Source of the DNA: Deltaproteobacteria bacterium
GTDB taxonomy: Bacteria; Desulfobacterota; Anaeroferrophillalia; Anaeroferrophillales; Tharpellaceae
NCBI GenBank assembly: GCA_016938065.1
Contig: JAFGVI010000026.1
Location: 13,904-77,903, forward strand
Direction of reading: 5' to 3'
Length of the DNA stretch: 64,000 nt
Below, one piece after another: positions 601 through 63,846 of this stretch; the first letter of the stretch is position 1; every line of letters begins with the position of its first letter. The notes under the pieces are model-generated. The model was given only the letters and a program-made list of their open reading frames with translations, had not been told where the DNA came from and did no database searches. A program made the position numbers and the translations under genes.

Positions 601-717
601 CGTCGATTTCTCCTCTGGATATGCAGCTCCGTTAAAAAAAATTAGTACTACCTCACATATATTAAGATAGTCTAATTCTAATATTATAATAGCAGGGGTT
701 TGTCAATCACCCATTTG

Positions 718-1359
718 TCAAGCCAGAAGCTGCATGATCAACTGCATATCTTCCCAGGTTTCTTTCTTTTTGCCGGGGCTGCGCAGAAGGTAGGCGGGGT
801 GATAGGTCGGCACCAGCAGGCAGTAATCTTTATAGGGGTGAGCATGGCCGCGAAGTCTGCCGATTGAGGTATCGGTGTTGAGCATGGTCTGAGCCGCAAA
901 GGTACCAAGGGCACAGATTACTTTTGGTTTAATGGTCTCAATCTGACGATCCAGAAAAGGTGAGCAGATGGCGATCTCATGAACTTCAGGATTACGATTG
1001 CCGGGGGGACGGCATTTTATGATGTTGGCAATATAAACCTGCTCGCGGGTCTTGCCGATCGCGGCGATTATTTTACTCAGAAGCTGGCCCGATCTGCCGA
1101 CAAAGGGCTCACCTTGAAGATCTTCGTCGGCCCCCGGCGCTTCACCGACAAACATCAGTTCGGCGTTGGCATTGCCGGCCCCGAAGACCAGCTTGTTCCG
1201 GGTTGTATGAAGATGACAGCGCCGACAATCCCCCAAATCCCGGCGGATATCGGCCAGATCTTTTGCCGAATCGTGTTTCGGTTTGAGAACCCCCGGATTT
1301 TGTAATTGACGCTGATGAATAACATGGGCTTTTAATTGTTCAAGGTCATGAGCCAGCAT
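718..1359 (-). CDS. Uracil-DNA glycosylase, family 4 (4Fe-4S type)
   Basis: Motif GEAPGADEDLQGEPFVGRSGQLL matches the family-4 UDG signature GE[AG]PG...PFVG.(A/S)G.LL. Cys-rich N-terminal part (CRRCHLH). 213 aa. Confidence 0.85.
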   Translation of the reverse strand: MLAHDLEQLKAHVIHQRQLQNPGVLKPKHDSAKDLADIRRDLGDCRRCHLHTTRNKLVFGAGNANAELMFVGEAPGADEDLQGEPFVGRSGQLLSKIIAAIGKTREQVYIANIIKCRPPGNRNPEVHEIAICSPFLDRQIETIKPKVICALGTFAAQTMLNTDTSIGRLRGHAHPYKDYCLLVPTYHPAYLLRSPGKKKETWEDMQLIMQLLA

Positions 1360-1361
1360 GG

Positions 1362-2576
1362 TTACAACACCTGACCGCGCAAACGGCGTTTATGCTTGAG
1401 GGCAAGCATATGGTCCAGAATGACCCCGGCAACTTTTTCTTTGCTCATTAAGGGGAAATCGGTTGACTGGCCGTCACGGTCGATAATTTTGATGATATTG
1501 GTATCGACCCCGAATCCGGCGCCCGGAGCCGTAACATCATTGGCGACAATCATATCAAGATTCTTGCGCTTGATCTTTTCCTGCGCGTGAGCCAGCAATT
1601 TGCTGGTTTCGGCGGCAAAGCCGACCAGAAAAGGTCGGTCGGGACGCTGTCCCAAGCCGGCTAAAATATCGGGGTTAGGCTCAAGTTCAAGACAATAACC
1701 ACCTTCACGTTTAATTTTTTCCGCCGCCTGCACCGCCGGCCGGAAATCGGCTACGGCTGCCGCCATGATAACCGAGGTCACCCCGGCAAGATTAGCATTG
1801 ATAGCATCAGACATCTCAACCGCAGTCCTGCATTGTATGACTTTGATGCCCCAGGTTTCAATCTCAGCCGAAGGTCCGGCCACGAGAATAACTTCAGCGC
1901 CGCGCCGCCGGGCAACGGCAGCCAGACTGTAACCCATTTTTCCCGAGGAGCGGTTGGTCAGACAGCGGGCCGGATCAATTGCCTCTTCTGTCGGGCCGGC
2001 ACTGATCAGAATTTTTTCCCCTTTAAGATCGTCAGGACTCAAAAGGGCTTTGATCTCATCCATGATCGCCTCAATATCGGCGAGTTTGCCCCGGCCGACA
2101 ACGCCGCAGGCGAGTTCACCTTCAGCCGGATCCATAAAATGATAATTCATCTCTTTAAGATTGGCGATGTTTTTCTGCACCACCAGACTGGCCCACATGT
2201 TGGTATTCATAGCCGGTGCGAAAAGAACCGGCACCCGGGTTGCCATGACCATGGTCGTCAGAAAATCATCGGCAATACCATTGGCAATTTTTCCGATAAT
2301 GTTAGCCGTGGCCGGAGCGATAACCAGCAGATCAGCCCGGCTGGCCAGCGAGACATGGCCGATTTCAGAAGAGGCAAAAAGGGTGAAGATATCGGTAGTT
2401 ACGGGATTGCCGGAGAGGGTTTGAAAGGTGAGGGGACCAACAAACTCTGTCGCACTTTTAGTCATAATAACATTGACATTGGCTCCGTGTTTAGTCAGCT
2501 CTCTTAAAAGCAATACCGATTTGTAGGCAGCGATTCCACCGGTAACCCCGAGCAGAATCTCTTTTCCATGCAGCAT
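1362..2576 (-). CDS. coaBC: Bifunctional phosphopantothenoylcysteine decarboxylase / phosphopantothenate-cysteine ligase
   Basis: 404 aa. N-terminal flavoprotein domain KEILLGVTGGIAAYK and C-terminal CoaB ligase domain. Overlaps the downstream UDG start by a few nt (operon). Confidence 0.9.
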   Translation of the reverse strand: MLHGKEILLGVTGGIAAYKSVLLLRELTKHGANVNVIMTKSATEFVGPLTFQTLSGNPVTTDIFTLFASSEIGHVSLASRADLLVIAPATANIIGKIANGIADDFLTTMVMATRVPVLFAPAMNTNMWASLVVQKNIANLKEMNYHFMDPAEGELACGVVGRGKLADIEAIMDEIKALLSPDDLKGEKILISAGPTEEAIDPARCLTNRSSGKMGYSLAAVARRRGAEVILVAGPSAEIETWGIKVIQCRTAVEMSDAINANLAGVTSVIMAAAVADFRPAVQAAEKIKREGGYCLELEPNPDILAGLGQRPDRPFLVGFAAETSKLLAHAQEKIKRKNLDMIVANDVTAPGAGFGVDTNIIKIIDRDGQSTDFPLMSKEKVAGVILDHMLALKHKRRLRGQVL

Positions 2577-2696
2577 GTTTTATAATCTCCGCGAAAAGAG
2601 TTGATGGATTATGGATTTTTGTAACACTTTACCAGACAGCGCACAACAGATAACGCAAATCATGCTTGATGACAAGGATAAATGAAAAAAATGATT

Positions 2697-3098
2697 TCAT
2701 TGTTTTACTGACTCGGAGGGCAATCCAGGCCGCACCTTAAGCACGGTCTCCTTGCGCAACGTAACCGTGCCGGGCTTAGCCCCACGAGGTTTACCGACAA
2801 ATTTGGCCTTGGTACAGGAGACTGCCACCACCCCGCCGGCCCGAGCTTTGCTGTGCCAGGCAGCAACTGCCGCTGCCTGCCTAAGCATTTCCTTGTCGGG
2901 TTCCTGTGACGTTCCTTCAGGAGAGCGCAGAAGCACATGGCTGCCGGGCATGCCGCGAACATGAAACCACCAGTCCTCCGCCCGCGCCACCTTCAAGCTC
3001 AGCTGGTCATTGTCTTTGTCGCTGTGGCCGGCCATGATCAGCCAGCCTCCGGACAAAGGATATTCGTAAGCCTTGAGTTCATCGTTCTTCATTTTCAT
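2697..3098 (-). CDS. DUF814 / NFACT-R RNA-binding domain protein (standalone Rqc2/Tae2-like C-terminal domain)
   Basis: 133 aa. Motif WWFHVRGMPGSHVLL is typical of DUF814. Last gene of the pdxJ-acpS operon. Confidence 0.55.
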   Translation of the reverse strand: MKMKNDELKAYEYPLSGGWLIMAGHSDKDNDQLSLKVARAEDWWFHVRGMPGSHVLLRSPEGTSQEPDKEMLRQAAAVAAWHSKARAGGVVAVSCTKAKFVGKPRGAKPGTVTLRKETVLKVRPGLPSESVKQ

Positions 3099-3745
3099 AG
3101 TGCGTTATATTTTAAAGGGTATTGGGCAAAAAGTTTGTTCCAGCCGTTTATGTCAGCTCCTTTCTGGGAGTTTTCATAAGGAGCCAGAAAGTCAACATAG
3201 ACATTATGTAACTGTTCATAACCCCAGGAGGGCTCTTCCAGTGTTCGCGGCTGAATATAGAGAATAAGAAAATTATGGCCCGGATAACAGGACTGAAACC
3301 CCTCAAGCACCATTTCCGCATCTTCGCGGCTCGAAAATTGATTTCTTTTGATGAAATAAAGAACTCTATCTGATGATGAAGTCAGTTTTCTCCATTTGTT
3401 GACCAGGTAGTCGACTTTACTTTTCTCCACTGCATAAATTTTATCGAAATCGTAATCATTCCGAAAATGTCGTCTGCCGCTTTGCGGATCTAATTTGGAA
3501 TAGAGTTTGGAATGAAAGGCCACGCTGGTTTTTGTATCTCGAATCATGCTGTCAATCTCTGCCGGTTTAAGATTTTCTTTGACAAAGAGATCTTGAAAAT
3601 CGCTTCTGATAAGAGAGATAAGCTTGTCACTGTCCACTACGACAAACCGGAAGATACTGCTCTCGTTATAATTTATCCGCCAGAACTGAAAGCCGGCTTC
3701 ACAATTATCTCCTAAAGAGATGTAATGATCGAATTCTTTTTTCAC
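3095..3745 (-). CDS. DUF1796 family protein (predicted papain-like cysteine peptidase fold)
   Basis: 216 aa. N-terminal YISLGDNCEAGFQF matches the ISLGxxC signature of DUF1796. Overlaps the downstream gene by 4 nt. Confidence 0.45.
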   Translation of the reverse strand: MKKEFDHYISLGDNCEAGFQFWRINYNESSIFRFVVVDSDKLISLIRSDFQDLFVKENLKPAEIDSMIRDTKTSVAFHSKLYSKLDPQSGRRHFRNDYDFDKIYAVEKSKVDYLVNKWRKLTSSSDRVLYFIKRNQFSSREDAEMVLEGFQSCYPGHNFLILYIQPRTLEEPSWGYEQLHNVYVDFLAPYENSQKGADINGWNKLFAQYPLKYNAL

Positions 3746-3766
3746 TGGCGCCTCGTTTTAAACAGG

Positions 3767-5173
3767 TTAGAAATCGCACTCAGTCCGGTTGGCGTACTGT
3801 TTAAGCAGGTCATGATTGACAATTTCAAAAGTGTCCGGCTCTGTGCCCGGTTTAATAAATTTTTTGGCAGCAAAAACCTCAAGACCGAGGTTTAATCTTT
3901 TAAAATCGTAATCGGGGGCCGCGTTTTTGAGATCTGCGAGCGTAAACCGGTATCTTTCTTTGCCGGTGGCGCAAAGGTTTATAATCATCGGAGCAACTTC
4001 ATAGGTCGGGGTTGTGCAGATACCAGCCCGCACCCGATGCATCAGCTGGTCGCTGAAATCTTCGAGTTCGGGTAACTCGCCGGGTGAAATTTTCAGCGGC
4101 TGACCCAGATTGACAAAGGTTGTCGTCTCCTGCAGAGAGCCATATTCACGATTGAGCTTGACCAGCTGTTGAATGAGATCACCGTAACTGATATTGACCC
4201 CTTTACGACTCTCCTCAATGGCCAGATCTTCAGGCACACAGGTGTAGGAGAGTGAGATCGGTACAAAATAGACGCTGCGATCTCTTTTTTCGACAAATTC
4301 AAAAATATTCTTGATGATGCCGACTTTGGGTTTTAAAATTTTACCACTGCGGGAACGTCCTCCCTCAGGATAGAAAAGATAGGGTTCGTTGTGAAGCCAC
4401 ATGTACTGGTTGTGCTGTTTGAACGTTTCGATATAGAGTGGGTTGCCCAGCCACTTGATCTTTTTTTCAATCATATCATCGCGTTTAAGTTGACAGACAT
4501 TGAGCTTGGGCAGGATTTTGCGCGAGATGCCCCGATAGAGATTGCTCCCGGCAATAACCACCGGGGAGATCACCCCGGCCCGGTTCAGGGCAAAAAGGAT
4601 GGGCAGATGGTCGGCATTGGAGATATGGTTGGCAATGAAAAAGACCGGCTCGTTACCAACCAGACGACGTACTTCGTTGATGGTTCCGGGGAGCGTTTCA
4701 ACGGCTCTGATAGAGTCGACAAAGTGATTGAAGAGGCGCTTGCCGACAGCACGAAAAAGGATGAGAAAAGCCGGATTAAAGTCCGGAGCAATGTCTTCCA
4801 GATAGAGATTGGCGAGAAATCTTAGAGTATCTGGTCCTTCTAGTTTCTTAAGAAAATCAGTTCTTTGCTGAATGTTTTCAATAGATGACTTTAATTGCTC
4901 ATGACGCTTTCCCGATACGCCTTGAGCCCGTCCTTTAAGTCGGTGCAGAAGCAGGCCGTCATGCATCAGCTGCAGGTTTTTGGCTTCAAAAACCGTGAGG
5001 TCTCCGAGCATGCCCTCACGGCCATAATCGACCAGCAGATATTTAATCACCGAAGCGATCAGTCTTTGCCGGTCGATGCGACTTTTATTGACGGCCAAAC
5101 GGTTAACCAGCAGCAACAGCAGCGGGCTTCGGCTCAGGCTCAAAAGAAAATCTATGGCACGATCAATTTTCAT
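3767..5173 (-). CDS. Glycerol-3-phosphate / lysophospholipid acyltransferase-like protein (GPAT/LPLAT family)
   Basis: 468 aa. HX4D acyltransferase motif (ANHISNADHLPI) and FPEGGRSRSG (FPEGTRS-like) motif II. Confidence 0.65.
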   Translation of the reverse strand: MKIDRAIDFLLSLSRSPLLLLLVNRLAVNKSRIDRQRLIASVIKYLLVDYGREGMLGDLTVFEAKNLQLMHDGLLLHRLKGRAQGVSGKRHEQLKSSIENIQQRTDFLKKLEGPDTLRFLANLYLEDIAPDFNPAFLILFRAVGKRLFNHFVDSIRAVETLPGTINEVRRLVGNEPVFFIANHISNADHLPILFALNRAGVISPVVIAGSNLYRGISRKILPKLNVCQLKRDDMIEKKIKWLGNPLYIETFKQHNQYMWLHNEPYLFYPEGGRSRSGKILKPKVGIIKNIFEFVEKRDRSVYFVPISLSYTCVPEDLAIEESRKGVNISYGDLIQQLVKLNREYGSLQETTTFVNLGQPLKISPGELPELEDFSDQLMHRVRAGICTTPTYEVAPMIINLCATGKERYRFTLADLKNAAPDYDFKRLNLGLEVFAAKKFIKPGTEPDTFEIVNHDLLKQYANRTECDF

Positions 5174-5176
5174 CTT

Positions 5177-6202
5177 TTAATAAAGTTTATATTTTTCGCG
5201 CAGGGTCTGAGAGAGCTGCCCGAGACTGGCAAAGGCCAGGTTGACGGTTTTCTGTTTATCCGGATTGATCAGACAGCAGGTCGCCGGCGACAACAGGCTT
5301 TGCGCAAGCAACAGATCACGATCCAGACCTTCGTCGATGAGACCCTGCCAGGTTGATTCGAGCAGTGCGGTCAAGCTCGCATGATTCTCTTTTTTGAACG
5401 GTTCAATATTGGTCGGAACAACACCCCAGACGATAATGCCGCCCCGTTTAATGAAATTGATGATGGCTTTTTTGTAGAGGGGAAGAACCCTGGCATTGGT
5501 ATAGAGATCGATCGAAACGATATCCATGTCAAAACCCAAAAGAAAATCCCAGTCCGGATTGCCGCAGAGATGAATGCCCCGGGGCCGCTCGATCATACTG
5601 AAAAGATAATCGATATCTTCGCGGGCAAAAAGATCGCTATAGCCCGACATCGCGCTGAAGATGAACTGCAGACCCGGTTCATCGATAAACATAAAGGCGT
5701 TGGGATTTTTCTCTTTGAGGCGGGCCAGTTGGACATTTACCCGCCGGGCCATGAATTCATAAAGAAAGGGGCGCACCATATCATCAAAAATAATCGGTCG
5801 ATCATTTTCATCTTTTATGAAAAAACCAAAACTGACCGGCCCTTCGAGCTGCCCCCGAATGGCGGCCCTCTGACTTAGATCAAGTTCCAGAAAACGATGA
5901 TAAACGGCTGAATATTGGAAACTTACGTCAAAGTATTGGGGCTCTTCGAAATGACTCAAGGTATCTTCCAGCTCAGCCATAAACTTCTTACTCGAAAAAC
6001 GCAGGCTCTTTTTTTCAAGATCCAGGACAATGCCGGGGAAATGTTCCGCCGCCTGCACATACATATCTCCATAATAACTGTAGAGAGGCAGCTGCGGCCA
6101 GAAGGGGATATCGAGCGAGAGAGCCAGCTGCAGCGCTTCATCGACGTCGGTATGGGGCATGACCGCCATCGCGGTGGTTAGCAGGTTTCCGGGCAGCGGC
6201 AT
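5177..6202 (-). CDS. URO-D/CIMS-like TIM-barrel protein (short cobalamin-independent methionine synthase / uroporphyrinogen decarboxylase-like family)
   Basis: 341 aa. FIDEPGL resembles the MetE IQIDEPAL motif, and IHLCGN resembles MetE/UroD HxCxx. Assignment by motif recollection only. Confidence 0.4.
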   Translation of the reverse strand: MPLPGNLLTTAMAVMPHTDVDEALQLALSLDIPFWPQLPLYSYYGDMYVQAAEHFPGIVLDLEKKSLRFSSKKFMAELEDTLSHFEEPQYFDVSFQYSAVYHRFLELDLSQRAAIRGQLEGPVSFGFFIKDENDRPIIFDDMVRPFLYEFMARRVNVQLARLKEKNPNAFMFIDEPGLQFIFSAMSGYSDLFAREDIDYLFSMIERPRGIHLCGNPDWDFLLGFDMDIVSIDLYTNARVLPLYKKAIINFIKRGGIIVWGVVPTNIEPFKKENHASLTALLESTWQGLIDEGLDRDLLLAQSLLSPATCCLINPDKQKTVNLAFASLGQLSQTLREKYKLY

Positions 6203-6215
6203 CGGAGCCTCCTTC

Positions 6216-6611
6216 TCAGGGAACAGTTACAGTTGTTTCAAGAACGACAAAAGCCAAAGCAAAATCCTGCTCATGCGAGAGACTCAACCAGGAAACCGCC
6301 TGATTTTTTTCGTAGCAAACCCGGTGGGCCCGGTTGTGCAGTTTCAGCTGGGGTTGACCGAGATTGTTGTTGATGACTTCAACATCACACCAGCTCAGAC
6401 CTTCCCGCAAGCCCAGACCCAGGGCTTTGACAAAAGCTTCTTTTGCGGCAAAGCGGGCGGCCAGGTGAATTGCCGGTCGGGCTTTAGCAAAAGCATAAGC
6501 AGTTTCCGTCTCACTGAAGACGCGCTGCAGAAAACGCCGGCCGTAACGTGCGACCAGCGTTTCGATGCGGCTGACCTGAACAATATCGCTGCCGATGCCG
6601 ACGATACTCAT
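6216..6611 (-). CDS. acpS: Holo-[acyl-carrier-protein] synthase
   Basis: 131 aa. N-terminus [17 protein letters not shown] is the classic AcpS start. Overlaps the pdxJ stop (6608-6611). Confidence 0.85.
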
Positions 6612-7321
6612 GGCAACAGGGCTTTCATCTCCCGCACAGCTCGTTCAAGGCCAACGAAGATGGCGTGACCGATAATACTGTGACCGATGTTGAGTTCTTC
6701 CAGCCCGGGAAGGTTGGCAATGGGAATAACATTGCGATAGTTCAATCCGTGTCCGGCATTAATTCTCAAACCGAGATTAGACGCGGTAATGCAGGCCAGA
6801 TCAATCAGGGAAAATTCTTTTTTAAGATCGTCTTCACTTTGCGCGTCACAATAACGCCCGGTGTGGATCTCAATAAATTGAGCACCGATAGAAGCCGCCG
6901 CTTCAATCTGATCGAGGTCAGGATCAATAAAGAGGCTGACGACAATACCTGCATCCTGAAATTTTTTGACCACCGGTTCCAATTTCAGACGATGTCCGAT
7001 TACATCCAGTCCACCCTCGGTGGTCAACTCTTCCCGCTTTTCCGGCACAAAGGTGGCCGCGTAAGGTTTTATCTGCAGGGCAAAATCCAAAATTTCCGGA
7101 GCCAGGGCCAGTTCCAGATTCAATCTGGTTTTTATAGTCTCTTGCAGCAAGCGCACATCGCGTTCCTGAATATGGCGATGGTCTTCCCGCAGATGTACCG
7201 TGATGCCGTCCGCCCCCCCCAGTTCAGCCAGAACAGCGGCGTTGACCGGGTCAGGTTCGCTGATACCCCGAGCCTGCCTGACGGTTGCCACATGATCGAT
7301 ATTTACGCCGAGTTTTACCAT
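6608..7321 (-). CDS. pdxJ: Pyridoxine 5'-phosphate synthase
   Basis: 237 aa. N-terminus [19 protein letters not shown] is the canonical PdxJ start. Confidence 0.9.
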
Positions 7322-7444
7322 GAATCATTTCTCCTGTTTCTGTCAGTATCGCTGTCAAATTATGCGCTCTATGTACAGACGGCAAAACAATTTCTAAATG
7401 CTGATCTTCTGTGTCTGTCAAAGGCAGTTTTCAGAGGTGGTTTT

Positions 7445-7639
7445 TTAAAGTCCCAGATAGGGCAGGATTTTACTGATACCGAAAATTATCAGGACAATTG
7501 CGGCCAGACCGACGGCTATTTTAAGAATGAAGGCGCCGATCCGAAAAGCGATATAAAGAACTACCGCACCGACAATCAGGAAAACGATGCTTTGCCAGTC
7601 AAATTGCGCATTCGAGAAATAGTTGCCGAAATTATTCAT
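7445..7639 (-). CDS. Small hydrophobic membrane protein (two predicted TM helices), hypothetical
   Basis: Track ORF 7445..7699. Internal ATG at 7639 is preceded by AAGGAAAA, giving MNNFGNYF... (64 aa) with two hydrophobic stretches. Confidence 0.35.
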   Translation of the reverse strand: MNNFGNYFSNAQFDWQSIVFLIVGAVVLYIAFRIGAFILKIAVGLAAIVLIIFGISKILPYLGL

Positions 7640-7964
7640 GGGATTTTCCTTTTTCCTCATGTTTGGTTGCGTAGTGGCGACCTTCAACCCCAAAGTCACT
7701 TATCGTAGAATTATGAGTAGATGGGATTATTGAGTTTTTTTGTGCAGATTGCACATAATAAAGCGAGCCGTTGCAAATTGCAAGCAAGATCGAAACTGCG
7801 GCAAAGGCTTTTAGCGAGATTTTCCAGCGGTAATCTGACTGGTCGACTTTTTAACCATCATGGTTAAACACTTGACTTCTTCTGATTTTAGTTTAGAATC
7901 CTCCATATTTTTTTGATGCTGAGGGTTACTCTTTAAGAATATGAGATGTGAGGATTGCTAACAT

Positions 7965-62181: not shown

Positions 62182-63846
62182 ATGTTCTGTTTTCAATGTC
62201 AGGAGACCGCAAAAAATCAGGGTTGCACCATTAAGGGTGTCTGCGGCAAGCCGGAAGAGACCGCGAATCTGCAGGATCTTTTAATTCATACCTTGAAAGG
62301 TATCGCCGTTTACGGTGAGAAATTGAAAGAGTTTAATATCATCGATAAAGAGACCTCCCTCTTTACGGCCAAGGCCCTCTTTACCACGATCACCAATGTC
62401 AACTGGGATGATCAGAGCCTGTGTGACTTCATCAAGGAAGCTTTACAACGGCGTAACCAGTTACGCGATAAATTCATCTCAGCCTACAAAGCTGAAAATG
62501 GTCAGGACTTTACCGGGGCGCTGCCGGATGCCGCCACCTGGTTTTCTGCTGATACGACCGTCTTTGCTGAAAAGGCCAAAAGCGTTGGCGTCCTCGCCAC
62601 CGAAAACGAAGATGTCCGCTCTCTGCGCGAGCTTTTGATTATCGGCCTCAAAGGGGTTGCCGCTTACGCCGACCACGCCGCCATTTTAGGTTTTGAAGAT
62701 GAGGCTATCTACGCCTTCATCATGGAGGCCCTGGCCTCAACCACGAAAAATCTTTCGGTGGATGAGATGGTCGCTCTGGTTATGAAAACCGGTGAGACCT
62801 CAGTCACCACTATGGCCCTGCTCGATAAAGCCAATACCACGACCTATGGTAATCCGGAACTTTCCGAGGTCAATCTCGGGGTGCGCAACAATCCCGGCAT
62901 CCTCATCAGCGGCCATGACTTAAAGGATATGGAAGAGCTTCTTAAACAGACCCAAGGCACCGGCGTCGACGTCTATACCCACGGCGAGATGCTGCCCTGC
63001 AACTACTATCCGGCCTTTAAAAAATATGACCATCTCGTCGGCAACTACGGCGGTTCCTGGTGGCATCAGAATACGGAGTTTGAATCTTTCAACGGCCCCA
63101 TCCTCCTGACCACCAACTGCCTGGTGCCCTTAAAGAAAGAGAACACCTATCTGGATCGTCTCTTTACCACAGGGGTAGTCGGCTATGTCGGCGCCGCTCA
63201 TATCGCCGACCGTCCCGCCGGCGGCACTAAAGATTTTTCCGCCATTATCGAGCGGGCAAAAAAGTGTGCTGCTCCGACCGAGATCGAAACCGGTAAAATC
63301 GTCGGCGGCTTTGCCCATAATCAGGTTCTGGCTCTGGCCGACAAAGTGGTTGCTGCGGTCAAGTCGGGCGCCATTAAACGTTTTGTCGTCATGGCCGGTT
63401 GCGACGGCCGCCAGAAATCAAGAGCCTACTTTACTGAAGTCGCCGAAAAGCTGCCGCAGGATACCGTAATTTTAACCGCCGGCTGCGCCAAATATCGCTA
63501 TAATAAACTTGCTTTGGGCGATATCTGCGGCATTCCCAGAATACTTGATGCAGGCCAGTGTAACGACTCCTACTCCTTGGCCGTAATCGCCCTGAAACTG
63601 AAAGAGGTCTTCGGCCTTAAAGATATCAACGAGTTGCCGATCTCTTATGATATCGGCTGGTATGAGCAGAAAGCCGTGGCCGTCCTCCTGGCCCTTCTCT
63701 TTCTCGGCGTCAAAGGCATCCGTTTAGGACCAACCCTGCCCGCCTTCCTCTCCCCGGCCGTGGCGAAAGTTCTGGTCGAAAACTTCAATATCAAAGCGAT
63801 CGACACCGTCGAAAATGATATTGCGGCGATGATGAAGGGTGAATAA
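62182..63846 (+). CDS. hcp: Hydroxylamine reductase (hybrid cluster protein)
   Basis: 554 aa. [17 protein letters not shown]-terminal Cys motif. RBS AGAGGAGA. Confidence 0.9.

What the first reader, a model, noticed from the sequence alone, without database searches (positions are those of the whole stretch)
3095..6202. Three-gene module (DUF1796 papain-like, GPAT/LPLAT-like acyltransferase, MetE/UroD-like TIM barrel) embedded in the pdxJ-acpS operon
pdxJ-acpS is a widely conserved gene pair. Here it is followed on the same strand, with 4-nt overlaps or gaps under 25 bp, by three genes: a UroD/MetE-like protein, a 468-aa acyltransferase with HX4D and FPEGGRS motifs, and a DUF1796 predicted cysteine peptidase/transferase, ending with a DUF814 RNA-binding domain. 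The tight packing suggests co-transcription with the holo-ACP synthase. An ACP-dependent acyl-transfer pathway, for example synthesis of an unusual membrane lipid, aminolipid or ether-lipid precursor, is a plausible but unproven function. None of the three proteins has a confidently known role.
Basis: inference. Interest (0 to 1): 0.55.

Follow-up and report, generated by a model that had tools for sequence, protein, structure and literature searches.

The report
Clade-specific operon, not a lipid module
The three tightly packed genes after pdxJ-acpS are real, but they travel together only in one small bacterial lineage; the most notable one is an unannotated relative of the short "core" methionine synthases that is widespread in sulfate-reducing bacteria, so there is no sign of a new lipid pathway.

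Summary
The genes, coordinates, motifs and tight spacing are all confirmed. The "three-gene module" does not hold up as a unit.

- **X341 (5177-6202)** has no Pfam or NCBIfam model. It is a divergent member of the MesB/core-MetE family of zinc-dependent methyl-corrinoid:homocysteine methyltransferases. Its His-x-Cys...Asp...Cys ligands are intact, but the homocysteine-carboxylate Ser is replaced by Val. It occurs in at least 584 species. In 77 of 80 sampled species none of the window's other genes lies within 7 kb.
- **AT468 (3767-5173)** is a half-size PlsB/GPAT-type acyltransferase from a rare family. Only its close relatives (61% identity or more) sit after acpS-X341. Relatives at 33-38% never do.
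- **DUF1796 (3095-3745)** is present in only some loci of the clade. Elsewhere it stands alone, lies in a rhamnose/glycosyltransferase cluster, or (in a giant virus) its structural match carries a glycosyltransferase name.

The order pdxJ-acpS-X341-AT468-(DUF1796) is conserved only in a Candidatus Tharpella-like lineage. The best reading is a lineage-specific mixed operon: a probable methionine synthase, an accessory glycerol-phosphate acyltransferase and a glycan-associated protein. A dedicated ACP-dependent lipid pathway is not excluded but lacks support. Interest is modest and rests mainly on the X341 subfamily.

The parts
6608..7321 (-). pdxJ (pyridoxine 5'-phosphate synthase), first gene of the run
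   Evidence: PF03740 E 1.2e-100; NCBIfam equivalog NF003625 363 bits, cut-off 190
6216..6611 (-). acpS (holo-ACP synthase); its start overlaps the pdxJ stop (ATGA)
   Evidence: PF01648 E 1.6e-20; TIGR00516 110.7 bits, cut-off 59.8; junction read
6208..6215 (-). Shine-Dalgarno-like GAAGGAGG, 5 nt before the X341 ATG, inside the 13-nt acpS-X341 gap
   Evidence: sequence read directly
5177..6202 (-). X341: divergent MesB/core-MetE-family TIM-barrel protein. Putative Zn ligands are H211, C213, D232 and C309/C310. It has a DEP motif at 174-176 and V14 in place of the homocysteine-carboxylate Ser.
   Evidence: no Pfam/NCBIfam hit; more than 5565 homologues; 1498 cluster representatives; AF2 model pLDDT 83, top PDB fold hits are MetE; profile hit to 3RPD; motifs collinear with E. 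coli MetE; motif comparison
3767..5173 (-). AT468: half-size PlsB/GPAT-type acyltransferase. Motif I is NHISNADH (182-189), motif II LKR (R231), motif III FYPEGGRSRSG (267-277), motif IV VPISLSY (304-310). No transmembrane helix predicted.
   Evidence: PF01553 2.8e-11; TIGR03703 plsB 2.1e-20, below cut-off; profile vs PDB: human GPAT1 8e4y 1.2e-14 and bacterial GPAT 9vuq 3.4e-13; alignment A2; hydropathy
3095..3745 (-). DUF1796 protein (GTG start). It has an invariant GDNCE motif (C15) and H78, lacks the ~25-aa basic C-terminal tail of its homologues, and has the lowest GC of the 54 window ORFs of 150 aa or more.
   Evidence: PF08795 3.8e-07; alignment A4; AF2 pLDDT 86; no PDB match; matches to giant-virus DUF1796 models; GC 0.401 vs mean 0.493, sd 0.031
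2697..3098 (-). stand-alone NFACT-R (former DUF814) domain protein; its start overlaps the DUF1796 stop. In most relatives it directly follows AT468.
   Evidence: PF05670 5.6e-12; synteny
1362..2576 (-). coaBC, a syntenic flank 120 nt downstream. Probably has its own promoter and is not part of the finding.
   Evidence: TIGR00521 454 bits, cut-off 219.7; synteny in L019, L020, L100, L101, L105

Best explanation
The three genes form a lineage-specific extension of the pdxJ-acpS operon in a Candidatus Tharpella-like clade. They are not a dedicated pathway.

(1) X341 is a divergent subfamily of the MesB/core-MetE family. By inference from that family, a Zn2+ ion held by H211, C213, D232 and C309/310 activates a thiol. 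That thiol then takes a methyl group from a methyl-corrinoid protein. The most likely acceptor is homocysteine, giving methionine (about 0.5), but the Ser-to-Val change at the carboxylate-binding position leaves another thiol acceptor open.

(2) AT468 is a soluble or peripheral half-size PlsB/GPAT-type enzyme. By inference it acylates the sn-1 hydroxyl of glycerol-3-phosphate (or DHAP) from acyl-ACP or acyl-CoA, as an accessory enzyme of this clade.

(3) DUF1796 is a dispensable Cys/His protein whose relatives associate with glycan synthesis genes.

Shown: gene identities, motifs, spacing and phyletic patterns. Inferred: co-transcription and all biochemical activities.
For: X341 is independent of the other two genes.
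- At least 584 species carry it.
- In 77 of 80 sampled species none of the window's other genes lies within 7 kb.
- No neighbour recurs in more than 10% of loci.
- Individual loci L001, L003, L006 and L008 show unrelated contexts.

X341 is MesB-like.
- It scores 150-175 bits against representatives that their sources call methionine synthase, in Methanomassiliicoccales and Chloroflexota.
- H211, C213, D232 and C309 are invariant or nearly so across 97 representatives. They sit where core-MetE of D. mccartyi has H215, C217, D236 and C312 (PMC7005905).
- Five motifs are collinear with E. coli MetE.
- MetE is the top fold hit.
- MesB was reported in 24 of 25 Desulfobacterales proteomes, often as the only methionine synthase (PMC7857596).

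AT468.
- It is a rare family with 47 close homologues.
- It has GPAT motifs and hits GPAT1 and PlsB structures.
- Relatives at 33-38% identity sit in unrelated contexts across genomes of 25-70% GC.

DUF1796.
- It is absent from L012, L019-L021 and L100-L105, and present in the window, L107 and L108.
- Homologues at 67% identity stand alone between UbiD and HDOD genes.
- A 38% homologue lies in a dTDP-rhamnose/glycosyltransferase cluster.
- The best structural match carries the name glycosyltransferase.
Against: - The order acpS-X341-AT468 is kept wherever the upstream DNA is present. X341 directly precedes AT468 in all 15 loci with a close AT468 homologue (61% identity or more).
- This includes a GC-rich sublineage (0.59 vs 0.49) whose downstream flank differs: RodA/FtsW instead of NFACT-R. 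L012 also lacks pdxJ.
- That persistence, together with 3-21 nt gaps and overlapping stop/start codons, could reflect selection for co-expression.
- DUF1796 occurs in both sublineages, so it may be ancestral to the block rather than a late insertion.
- The methionine-synthase call for X341 is weakened by V14 replacing the Ser that binds the homocysteine carboxylate.
- It is also weakened by concerted changes around the Zn site (HLCGNPDW and TCCL).
- The X341 clade sits on the longest internal branch of the family tree.
- A canonical MesB next to MetRS exists in a Thermodesulfobacteriota MAG, so X341 could be a paralogue.
Confidence: 0.55

Rival explanations
1. X341, AT468 and DUF1796 form one dedicated pathway that is co-expressed with holo-ACP synthase and makes an unusual membrane lipid, such as an aminolipid, an ether-lipid precursor or a methylated or thio-lipid.
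For: Gaps of 3-21 nt and 4-nt overlaps. acpS-X341-AT468 is invariant in the clade even where the flanks differ. AT468 belongs to a family that uses acyl-ACP or acyl-CoA.
Against: Each gene has its own phyletic pattern. X341 occurs without the others in 77 of 80 species. Distant AT468 relatives never sit with X341 or acpS. DUF1796 is dispensable within the clade and is linked elsewhere to glycan genes. The clade's X341 is 67-70% identical to stand-alone orthologues, with no sign of divergence toward a new partner. acpS is a housekeeping gene, and pdxJ-acpS is itself a functionally mixed pair.
Confidence: 0.12
2. X341 is not a methionine synthase. It is a neofunctionalised MesB paralogue that methylates or alkylates a different thiol, possibly as part of a redox or nitrosative stress response in Desulfobacterota. 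Its position beside acpS and AT468 is incidental.
For: V/I replaces the carboxylate-binding Ser in all 13 representatives of the X341 clade, whereas 75 of 97 representatives keep Ser. Motif changes are concerted. The clade stem is the longest internal branch, 0.25 against a median of 0.034. PGAP and JGI call canonical types methionine synthase but call X341 types hypothetical. A canonical type overlaps MetRS in a Thermodesulfobacteriota MAG. Recurrent neighbours are Hcp, Crp/Fnr, rubrerythrin, hemerythrin, HAO-like cytochromes and a NIR_SIR Fe-S protein. FNR-like palindromes upstream are about two-fold enriched.
Against: Each of those neighbours occurs in 10% of loci or fewer. The Zn ligands and the Asp of the DEP motif, which binds the homocysteine amino group, are intact. 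A few loci place X341 beside CysK, NifS and a hexapeptide-repeat transferase, which hints at sulfur amino-acid metabolism. MesB was reported as the only methionine synthase in many Desulfobacterales (PMC7857596), and X341 may be that protein. Co-occurrence with a canonical MesB in one genome was not tested.
Confidence: 0.25
3. AT468 and DUF1796 are a two-gene accessory envelope module, acyltransferase plus Cys/His transferase or hydrolase, that inserted downstream of X341 in the clade ancestor. X341 and acpS are bystanders.
For: Both families are rare, with 47 and 18 close homologues. They are adjacent in the window, L107 and L108, and probably on three further contigs inferred from matching contig lengths of 11084, 11783 and 3448. 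DUF1796 identity tracks AT468 identity across the two sublineages.
Against: DUF1796 is missing from 10 of the 15 AT468 loci. DUF1796 orthologues at 67% identity stand alone elsewhere. No distant AT468 relative has a DUF1796 neighbour.
Confidence: 0.15

Closest known systems
MesB / core-MetE (cobalamin-protein-dependent core methionine synthase; D. mccartyi cbdbA481/Q3Z939; Deobald 2020 PMC7005905, Price 2021 PMC7857596)
   Same: Single ~340-aa MetE-like barrel with no folate-binding domain. Zn ligands are His-x-Cys, Asp (not Glu) and Cys at nearly the same positions (211/213/232/309 vs 215/217/236/312). It has KGQxTGP-like and DEP motifs. It scores 150-175 bits against canonical members. It is found in anaerobes of the groups where MesB was reported.
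   Different: It forms a separate, monophyletic subfamily on a long branch. Val/Ile replaces the Ser equivalent to E. coli S433. Motifs read HLCGNPDWD instead of HCCGNTDWS, and SPATCCLVNPD instead of TPSCGLGS. It is not named methionine synthase by PGAP or JGI. No Wood-Ljungdahl or methionine genes were seen next to it in 80 loci.
MetE C-terminal catalytic domain (PF01717; E. coli MetE, T. maritima 3BQ5, S. mutans 3L7R) and MesD (3RPD)
   Same: TIM-barrel fold (Foldseek E 1.9e-4, TMq up to 0.59). Motif order is the same: TT.IGS.P / KG..TGP / DEP / H.C / acidic residue / CGL.
   Different: No significant sequence hit to PF01717. The third ligand is Asp rather than Glu. The N-terminal folate domain is absent. 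Ser433 is not conserved.
PlsB / GPAT1 / DHAPAT-type glycerol-3-phosphate acyltransferases
   Same: HX4D motif, the FxEGGRSRxG motif III typical of GPAT/DHAPAT rather than PlsC, and motifs II and IV. Profile hits to human GPAT1 (1.2e-14) and a bacterial GPAT structure (3.4e-13).
   Different: Only 468 aa, against about 800 for PlsB. It lacks the PF19277 GPAT_C and PF27464 regions seen in its 25%-identity relatives. It scores far below the equivalog cut-offs (72.8 vs 618.5 bits). Its distribution is rare and patchy.
DUF1796 (PF08795, 'putative papain-like cysteine peptidase')
   Same: Passes the Pfam gathering score. The model superposes on giant-virus DUF1796 models (TM 0.5-0.7). Cys15 lies at the N-terminus of a helix and His78 on a strand.
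   Different: No solved structure, papain-like or otherwise, matches the model. The window copy lacks the basic C-terminal tail of its homologues. No experimental function is known for any member.

Membership tests
MesB / core-MetE methionine synthases | Sequence similarity to characterised MesB (Price 2021 used >=130 bits to Q3Z939) | tested here: inconclusive
As proxies, X341 scores 151.7 bits against a Methanomassiliicoccales cluster (P0286) and 153.5 bits against an Anaerolineae/Chloroflexota cluster (P0278) whose members are named methionine synthase.
MesB / core-MetE methionine synthases | Zinc ligands His-x-Cys ... Asp/Glu ... Cys | tested here: met
   H211 in 97 of 97 representatives, C213 in 96, D232 in 94, C309 in 96. 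They correspond to H215, C217, D236 and C312 of core-MetE CBDB1 (PMC7005905).
MesB / core-MetE methionine synthases | Homocysteine-binding residues (E. coli S433 for the carboxylate, D599 for the amino group) | tested here: not met
   D174 of the DEP motif is conserved. The S433 equivalent is V14, invariant in alignment A1, and V/I in all 13 representatives of the X341 clade; 75 of 97 family representatives keep Ser. The result is half met, so the substrate assignment is uncertain.
MesB / core-MetE methionine synthases | Host genome encodes the corrinoid Fe-S protein (AcsC/AcsD) and lacks other methionine synthases | not tested
   None of these genes is in the 64-kb window, and whole genomes could not be scanned with these tools.
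MesB / core-MetE methionine synthases | Methylcobalamin:homocysteine methyltransferase activity | not testable with these tools
   Needs a biochemical or complementation assay.
MetE catalytic domain (PF01717) | Significant match to the Pfam model | tested here: not met
   No hit even at E<=10. Only fold-level and motif-level similarity was found.
PlsB/GPAT-type acyltransferases | Four acyltransferase motifs, including HX4D and the GPAT-type motif III xEGGRSRxG | tested here: met
   NHISNADH, LKR (R231 aligned to the IRR of GPAT1), FYPEGGRSRSG and VPISLSY are invariant in alignment A2.
PlsB/GPAT-type acyltransferases | Equivalog-level match to PlsB (full length ~800 aa with the C-terminal GPAT_C region) | tested here: not met
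   72.8 bits against a cut-off of 618.5. Only residues 120-363 align, and there is no PF19277 or PF27464 hit.
PlsB/GPAT-type acyltransferases | Acylation of glycerol-3-phosphate at sn-1 | not testable with these tools
   Needs plsB complementation or an enzyme assay.
DUF1796 (PF08795) | Match above the Pfam gathering score | tested here: met
   30.5 bits against a cut-off of 23. Structural matches to proteins annotated as this family in BFVD, E 1e-7 to 1e-4.
DUF1796 (PF08795) | Papain-like cysteine peptidase fold | tested here: inconclusive
Conserved functional gene module (operon conserved across lineages) | Co-localisation of the three genes in phylogenetically distinct genomes | tested here: not met
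   Co-localisation is seen only in one Candidatus Tharpella-like clade. 77 of 80 species have X341 without the others. Distant AT468 and DUF1796 homologues lie in other contexts.

The most novel reading that the evidence does not exclude
The X341 subfamily is found in at least 584 species, is about 67-70% identical between Candidatus Tharpella-like bacteria and Desulfobacterales, and is covered by no Pfam or NCBIfam model. On the novel reading it is not a methionine synthase. It would be a zinc- and corrinoid-dependent methyl- or alkyl-transferase with a new thiol acceptor, loosely tied to Hcp/FNR-type stress genes. In the Tharpella-like clade it would be functionally coupled to the mini-PlsB acyltransferase, for example acting on a pantetheine-linked or lipid-linked thiol.
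Probability: 0.12. Interest if true: 0.6.

Novelty: new variant of a known kind. Interest (0 to 1): 0.3.

Why it matters
If X341 is the working methionine synthase of Desulfobacterota and their relatives, thousands of "hypothetical protein" annotations could be replaced. A gap in methionine biosynthesis models for sulfate reducers would also close. It would further show that the homocysteine-binding Ser is dispensable in this enzyme family.

If X341 is instead a paralogue with another acceptor, it is a very widespread unknown enzyme of anaerobic sulfur and C1 metabolism.

The half-size PlsB-like enzyme is a compact candidate for studying the minimal GPAT core.

The three-gene "module" itself does not point to a new lipid pathway.

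Tried and rejected
- **Single-sequence PDB searches.** These found nothing for X341 or DUF1796. The DUF1796 profile search also found nothing.
- **hhalign of the X341 profile against E. coli MetE.** It gave a collinear alignment but only 5.7% probability. I use it for motif correspondence only.
- **Second MesB-like gene.** I looked in the window and within 7 kb of X341 in all loci and found none.
- **Riboswitches.** I looked for SAM or cobalamin riboswitches in the window and upstream of X341 in 9 loci and found none.
- **Cluster look-ups for taxon names.** Look-ups on 30 representatives gave names for only a few clusters. They could not show whether canonical MesB and X341 co-occur in one genome.
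- **Context of canonical MesB types.** One locus sits beside MetRS and the other beside Hyp genes. Two loci are too few to generalise.
- **DUF1796 as a recent horizontal insertion.** Its low GC suggested this. I set the idea aside because DUF1796 sits at the same position in a divergent GC-rich sublineage, with near-host GC.
- **Literature.** A search for DUF1796 found no papers.
- **Promoter and terminator scan.** It gave no convincing intergenic signal inside the run, which is weak evidence either way.

Full report
**Observation.** The minus strand of window 700-7350 carries an unbroken run of genes:

| Gene | Coordinates |
|---|---|
| pdxJ | 6608-7321 |
| acpS | 6216-6611 |
| 341-aa ORF (X341) | 5177-6202 |
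| 468-aa ORF (AT468) | 3767-5173 |
| 216-aa ORF, GTG start (DUF1796) | 3095-3745 |
| 133-aa NFACT-R (former DUF814) protein | 2697-3098 |
| coaBC | 1362-2576 |
| family-4 uracil-DNA glycosylase | 718-1359 |

Profile searches confirm PdxJ, ACPS, PF01553 acyltransferase, DUF1796, NFACT-R_1 and CoaBC. X341 matches nothing in Pfam or NCBIfam.

- pdxJ/acpS: ATGA overlap.
- acpS to X341: 13 nt, containing GAAGGAGG.
- X341 to AT468: 3 nt.
- AT468 to DUF1796: 21 nt.
- DUF1796/NFACT-R: ATGA overlap.
- NFACT-R to coaBC: 120 nt.

A pattern scan placed no promoter-like or terminator-like site in any of the short gaps inside the run. The only correction is that motif III reads FYPEGGRSRSG.

**Organism.** The nearest named relative is Candidatus Tharpella sp., with pdxJ 90% and coaBC 92% identical (L020). 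NCBI places that genus in a candidate phylum, Tharpellota. The window is not from Desulfuromonadales.

**What X341 is.**
- It has more than 5565 homologues in the 90%-clustered protein collection. The best 120 are 66-100% identical, and most carry either no name or "hypothetical protein"; the Desulfonema limicola copy is named MetE-like domain-containing protein.
- An exhaustive HMMER search found 1498 cluster representatives, many of them full-length proteins at 27-35% identity.
- Some of those clusters are named "methionine synthase" or "methionine synthase II (cobalamin-independent)". They come from Methanomassiliicoccales, Thermoplasmata, Anaerolineae and Chloroflexota. Methanomassiliicoccales and Chloroflexi are among the groups in which Price et al. 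(PMC7857596) placed the MesB family of core methionine synthases.
- The AlphaFold model (pLDDT 83) is a TIM barrel whose best PDB matches are MetE structures: 3L7R at E 1.9e-4, and 3BQ5 with TMq 0.59.
- A family profile finds the MesD structure 3RPD as its best PDB hit, aligned through the DEP and H-x-C motifs.
- A profile alignment to E. coli MetE lines up KGQxTGP, DEP, H-x-C, the acidic ligand and CGL in order.
- H211, C213, D232 and C309 are invariant or nearly so across 97 representatives. They sit where core-MetE of Dehalococcoides mccartyi has H215, C217, D236 and C312, with the same Asp in place of the Glu of MetE (PMC7005905).

X341 is therefore a member, in the broad sense, of the MesB/core-MetE family.

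**X341 is a distinct subfamily.** All 13 representatives of its clade show concerted differences from the canonical proteins.

| Position | X341 clade | Canonical MesB-like |
|---|---|---|
| N-terminal motif | TTAM[AG][VI][ML]PHT | TGIGSLPHT |
| Around the H-x-C ligands | HLCGNPDWD | HCCGNTDWS |
| Around the last Cys ligand | SPATCCLVNPD | TPSCGLGS |

- The first change removes the Ser equivalent to E. coli S433, which binds the homocysteine carboxylate (PMC7857596).
- In a neighbour-joining tree the clade is monophyletic. Its stem is the longest internal branch, 0.25 against a median of 0.034.
- Mean identity to canonical members is 30%, against 36.5% among canonical members.
- Price et al. 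found MesB in 24 of 25 Desulfobacterales proteomes, often as the only methionine synthase. They also note that some genomes hold two or three paralogues.
- A canonical-type protein from a Thermodesulfobacteriota MAG overlaps the start of a methionyl-tRNA synthetase gene. So at least one MAG assigned to Thermodesulfobacteriota carries the canonical type.
- I could not test whether the two types co-occur in one genome.

I rate "methionine synthase" as the most likely activity of X341, at roughly 0.5. A different thiol acceptor is a serious alternative.

**Neighbourhood of X341.** A scan of one genome per species found at least 584 species with the gene. Most of the 80 best matches come from Desulfobacterales, Desulfatiglandales, Desulfarculales and unclassified Thermodesulfobacteriota or delta-proteobacterial MAGs.
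- Only three of those 80 loci (L019, L020, L021; 85-86% identical) share the window's context. In the other 77, none of the window's other seven genes lies within 7 kb.
- Individual look-ups agree. X341 sits after a riboflavin operon in D. limicola, beside an RND pump in L003, beside a B12-radical SAM gene in L006, and beside cysK-nifU-nifS in L008 at 79% identity.
- Clustering the neighbours shows no partner in more than 10% of loci.
- The recurrent neighbours are a 282-aa PCP_red/NIR_SIR iron-sulfur protein that overlaps the X341 start (8 loci), Hcp (8), Crp/Fnr regulators (7), rubrerythrin (6), HAO-like cytochromes (5) and hemerythrin (4).

**AT468.** Only 47 proteins in the collection are more than 30% identical to it.
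- It has the GPAT/PlsB-type motif set.
- Its profile hits human GPAT1 (1.2e-14) and a bacterial GPAT structure (3.4e-13) over the catalytic core.
- It is about half the length of PlsB and lacks the GPAT_C region.
- No transmembrane helix is evident.
- X341 lies directly upstream in all 15 loci that carry a close homologue (61% identity or more): the window, L012, L013, L019-L021 and L100-L108. Some of these may be the same genome sampled twice.
- acpS lies before X341 wherever the sequence extends far enough, and pdxJ lies before acpS except in L012.
- This clade has two sublineages. One has GC near 0.49 and continues into NFACT-R-coaBC-UDG. The other has GC near 0.59 and continues into RodA/FtsW.
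- Homologues at 33-38% identity come from genomes of 25-70% GC. They never have X341, acpS or DUF1796 nearby, and apart from the near-identical pair L010/L011 they share no neighbour.

**DUF1796.** Only 18 homologues were found.
- Within the clade it follows AT468 in the window, L107 and L108. It probably does so on three more contigs, inferred from matching contig lengths.
- It is absent from L012, L019-L021 and L100-L105, where AT468 is followed at once by NFACT-R or by RodA/FtsW.
- Homologues at 67% identity stand alone between UbiD and an HDOD/HD gene.
- A 38% homologue lies inside a dTDP-rhamnose/glycosyltransferase cluster.
- The model (pLDDT 86) places the invariant Cys15 at the start of a helix and His78 on a strand.
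- No solved structure matches it.
- It matches giant-virus proteins of the same Pfam family. The best match is a 615-aa protein named glycosyltransferase.
- The window copy lacks the basic C-terminal tail of its homologues. It has the lowest GC of the 54 window ORFs of 150 aa or more.
- Its presence at the same site in both sublineages argues against a recent insertion.

**Interpretation.** The three genes have three separate evolutionary distributions.
- X341 was found in at least 584 species, mostly Desulfobacterota, and usually without the window's other genes nearby.
- AT468 is rare and sporadic.
- DUF1796 is rare, dispensable, and linked elsewhere to glycan genes.

They lie together only in a Tharpella-like clade, whose whole neighbourhood is syntenic. 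The adjacency is therefore largely one inherited arrangement, not repeated independent evidence of functional coupling.

The best reading is a lineage-specific mixed operon that extends pdxJ-acpS, a pair that is itself functionally mixed. The persistence of acpS-X341-AT468 through a GC shift and a change of flanks is the main argument for some selective value in co-expression.

**Novelty and score.** Nothing here is categorically new.
- X341 is a new, very widespread variant of a known enzyme family. It lacks any curated model and has an altered substrate-binding position.
- AT468 is a compact variant of GPAT.

Interest is 0.3, carried by X341 rather than by the proposed module.

Noticed in passing
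L019-L098 (X341 loci from other species), 250 nt upstream of the X341 start: FNR/CRP-like palindromes (TTGAY-N4-ATCAA) lie 94-138 nt upstream of X341. At 2 mismatches or fewer they occur in 21 of 75 loci, against 10.5 in shuffles; at 1 mismatch or fewer, in 4 loci against about 1. An example is TTTGACTTAAATCAAA in L022 and L082. Seven loci also carry an adjacent Crp/Fnr regulator gene.
   Followed up: partly
e.g. L061:6148-6996, directly upstream of X341 in 8 of 80 species loci: A 282-aa protein with PCP_red, NIR_SIR 4Fe-4S and ferredoxin domains overlaps the X341 start by 4 nt. It is the only translationally coupled partner that recurs outside the Tharpella-like clade.
   Followed up: partly
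L180:2377-4964 (Thermodesulfobacteriota MAG GCA_034189485.1): A canonical MesB-type gene (P0244) is followed, with overlapping stop and start codons, by a methionyl-tRNA synthetase gene. This ties the canonical type, rather than the X341 type, to methionine.
   Followed up: no
window 62182-63846 (+): An ORF beginning MFCFQCQET..., like the hybrid-cluster protein (Hcp, Prismane family) that recurs beside X341 in other species. Here it lies 56 kb from X341. It was identified by eye against the Hcp confirmed and was not scanned itself.
   Followed up: no
window 7445-7699 (-): A small 84-aa ORF with a hydrophobic C-terminal half sits about 120 nt upstream of pdxJ on the same strand. A promoter-like site at 7783-7755 lies before it, so the transcript may start here.
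   Followed up: no
window 3095-3745 (-): The DUF1796 gene has GC 0.401, the lowest of the 54 window ORFs of 150 aa or more (mean 0.493, sd 0.031). Its homologues in relatives with GC 0.59 are only slightly below their local average.
   Followed up: yes
L019:9838-11671 and L100:7802-9635: These relatives have about 1.8 kb of extra DNA between the NFACT-R gene and coaBC, where the window has 120 nt. The content was not examined.
   Followed up: no
window 1-64000: No Rfam family reaches its gathering score anywhere in the window, on either strand.
   Followed up: yes
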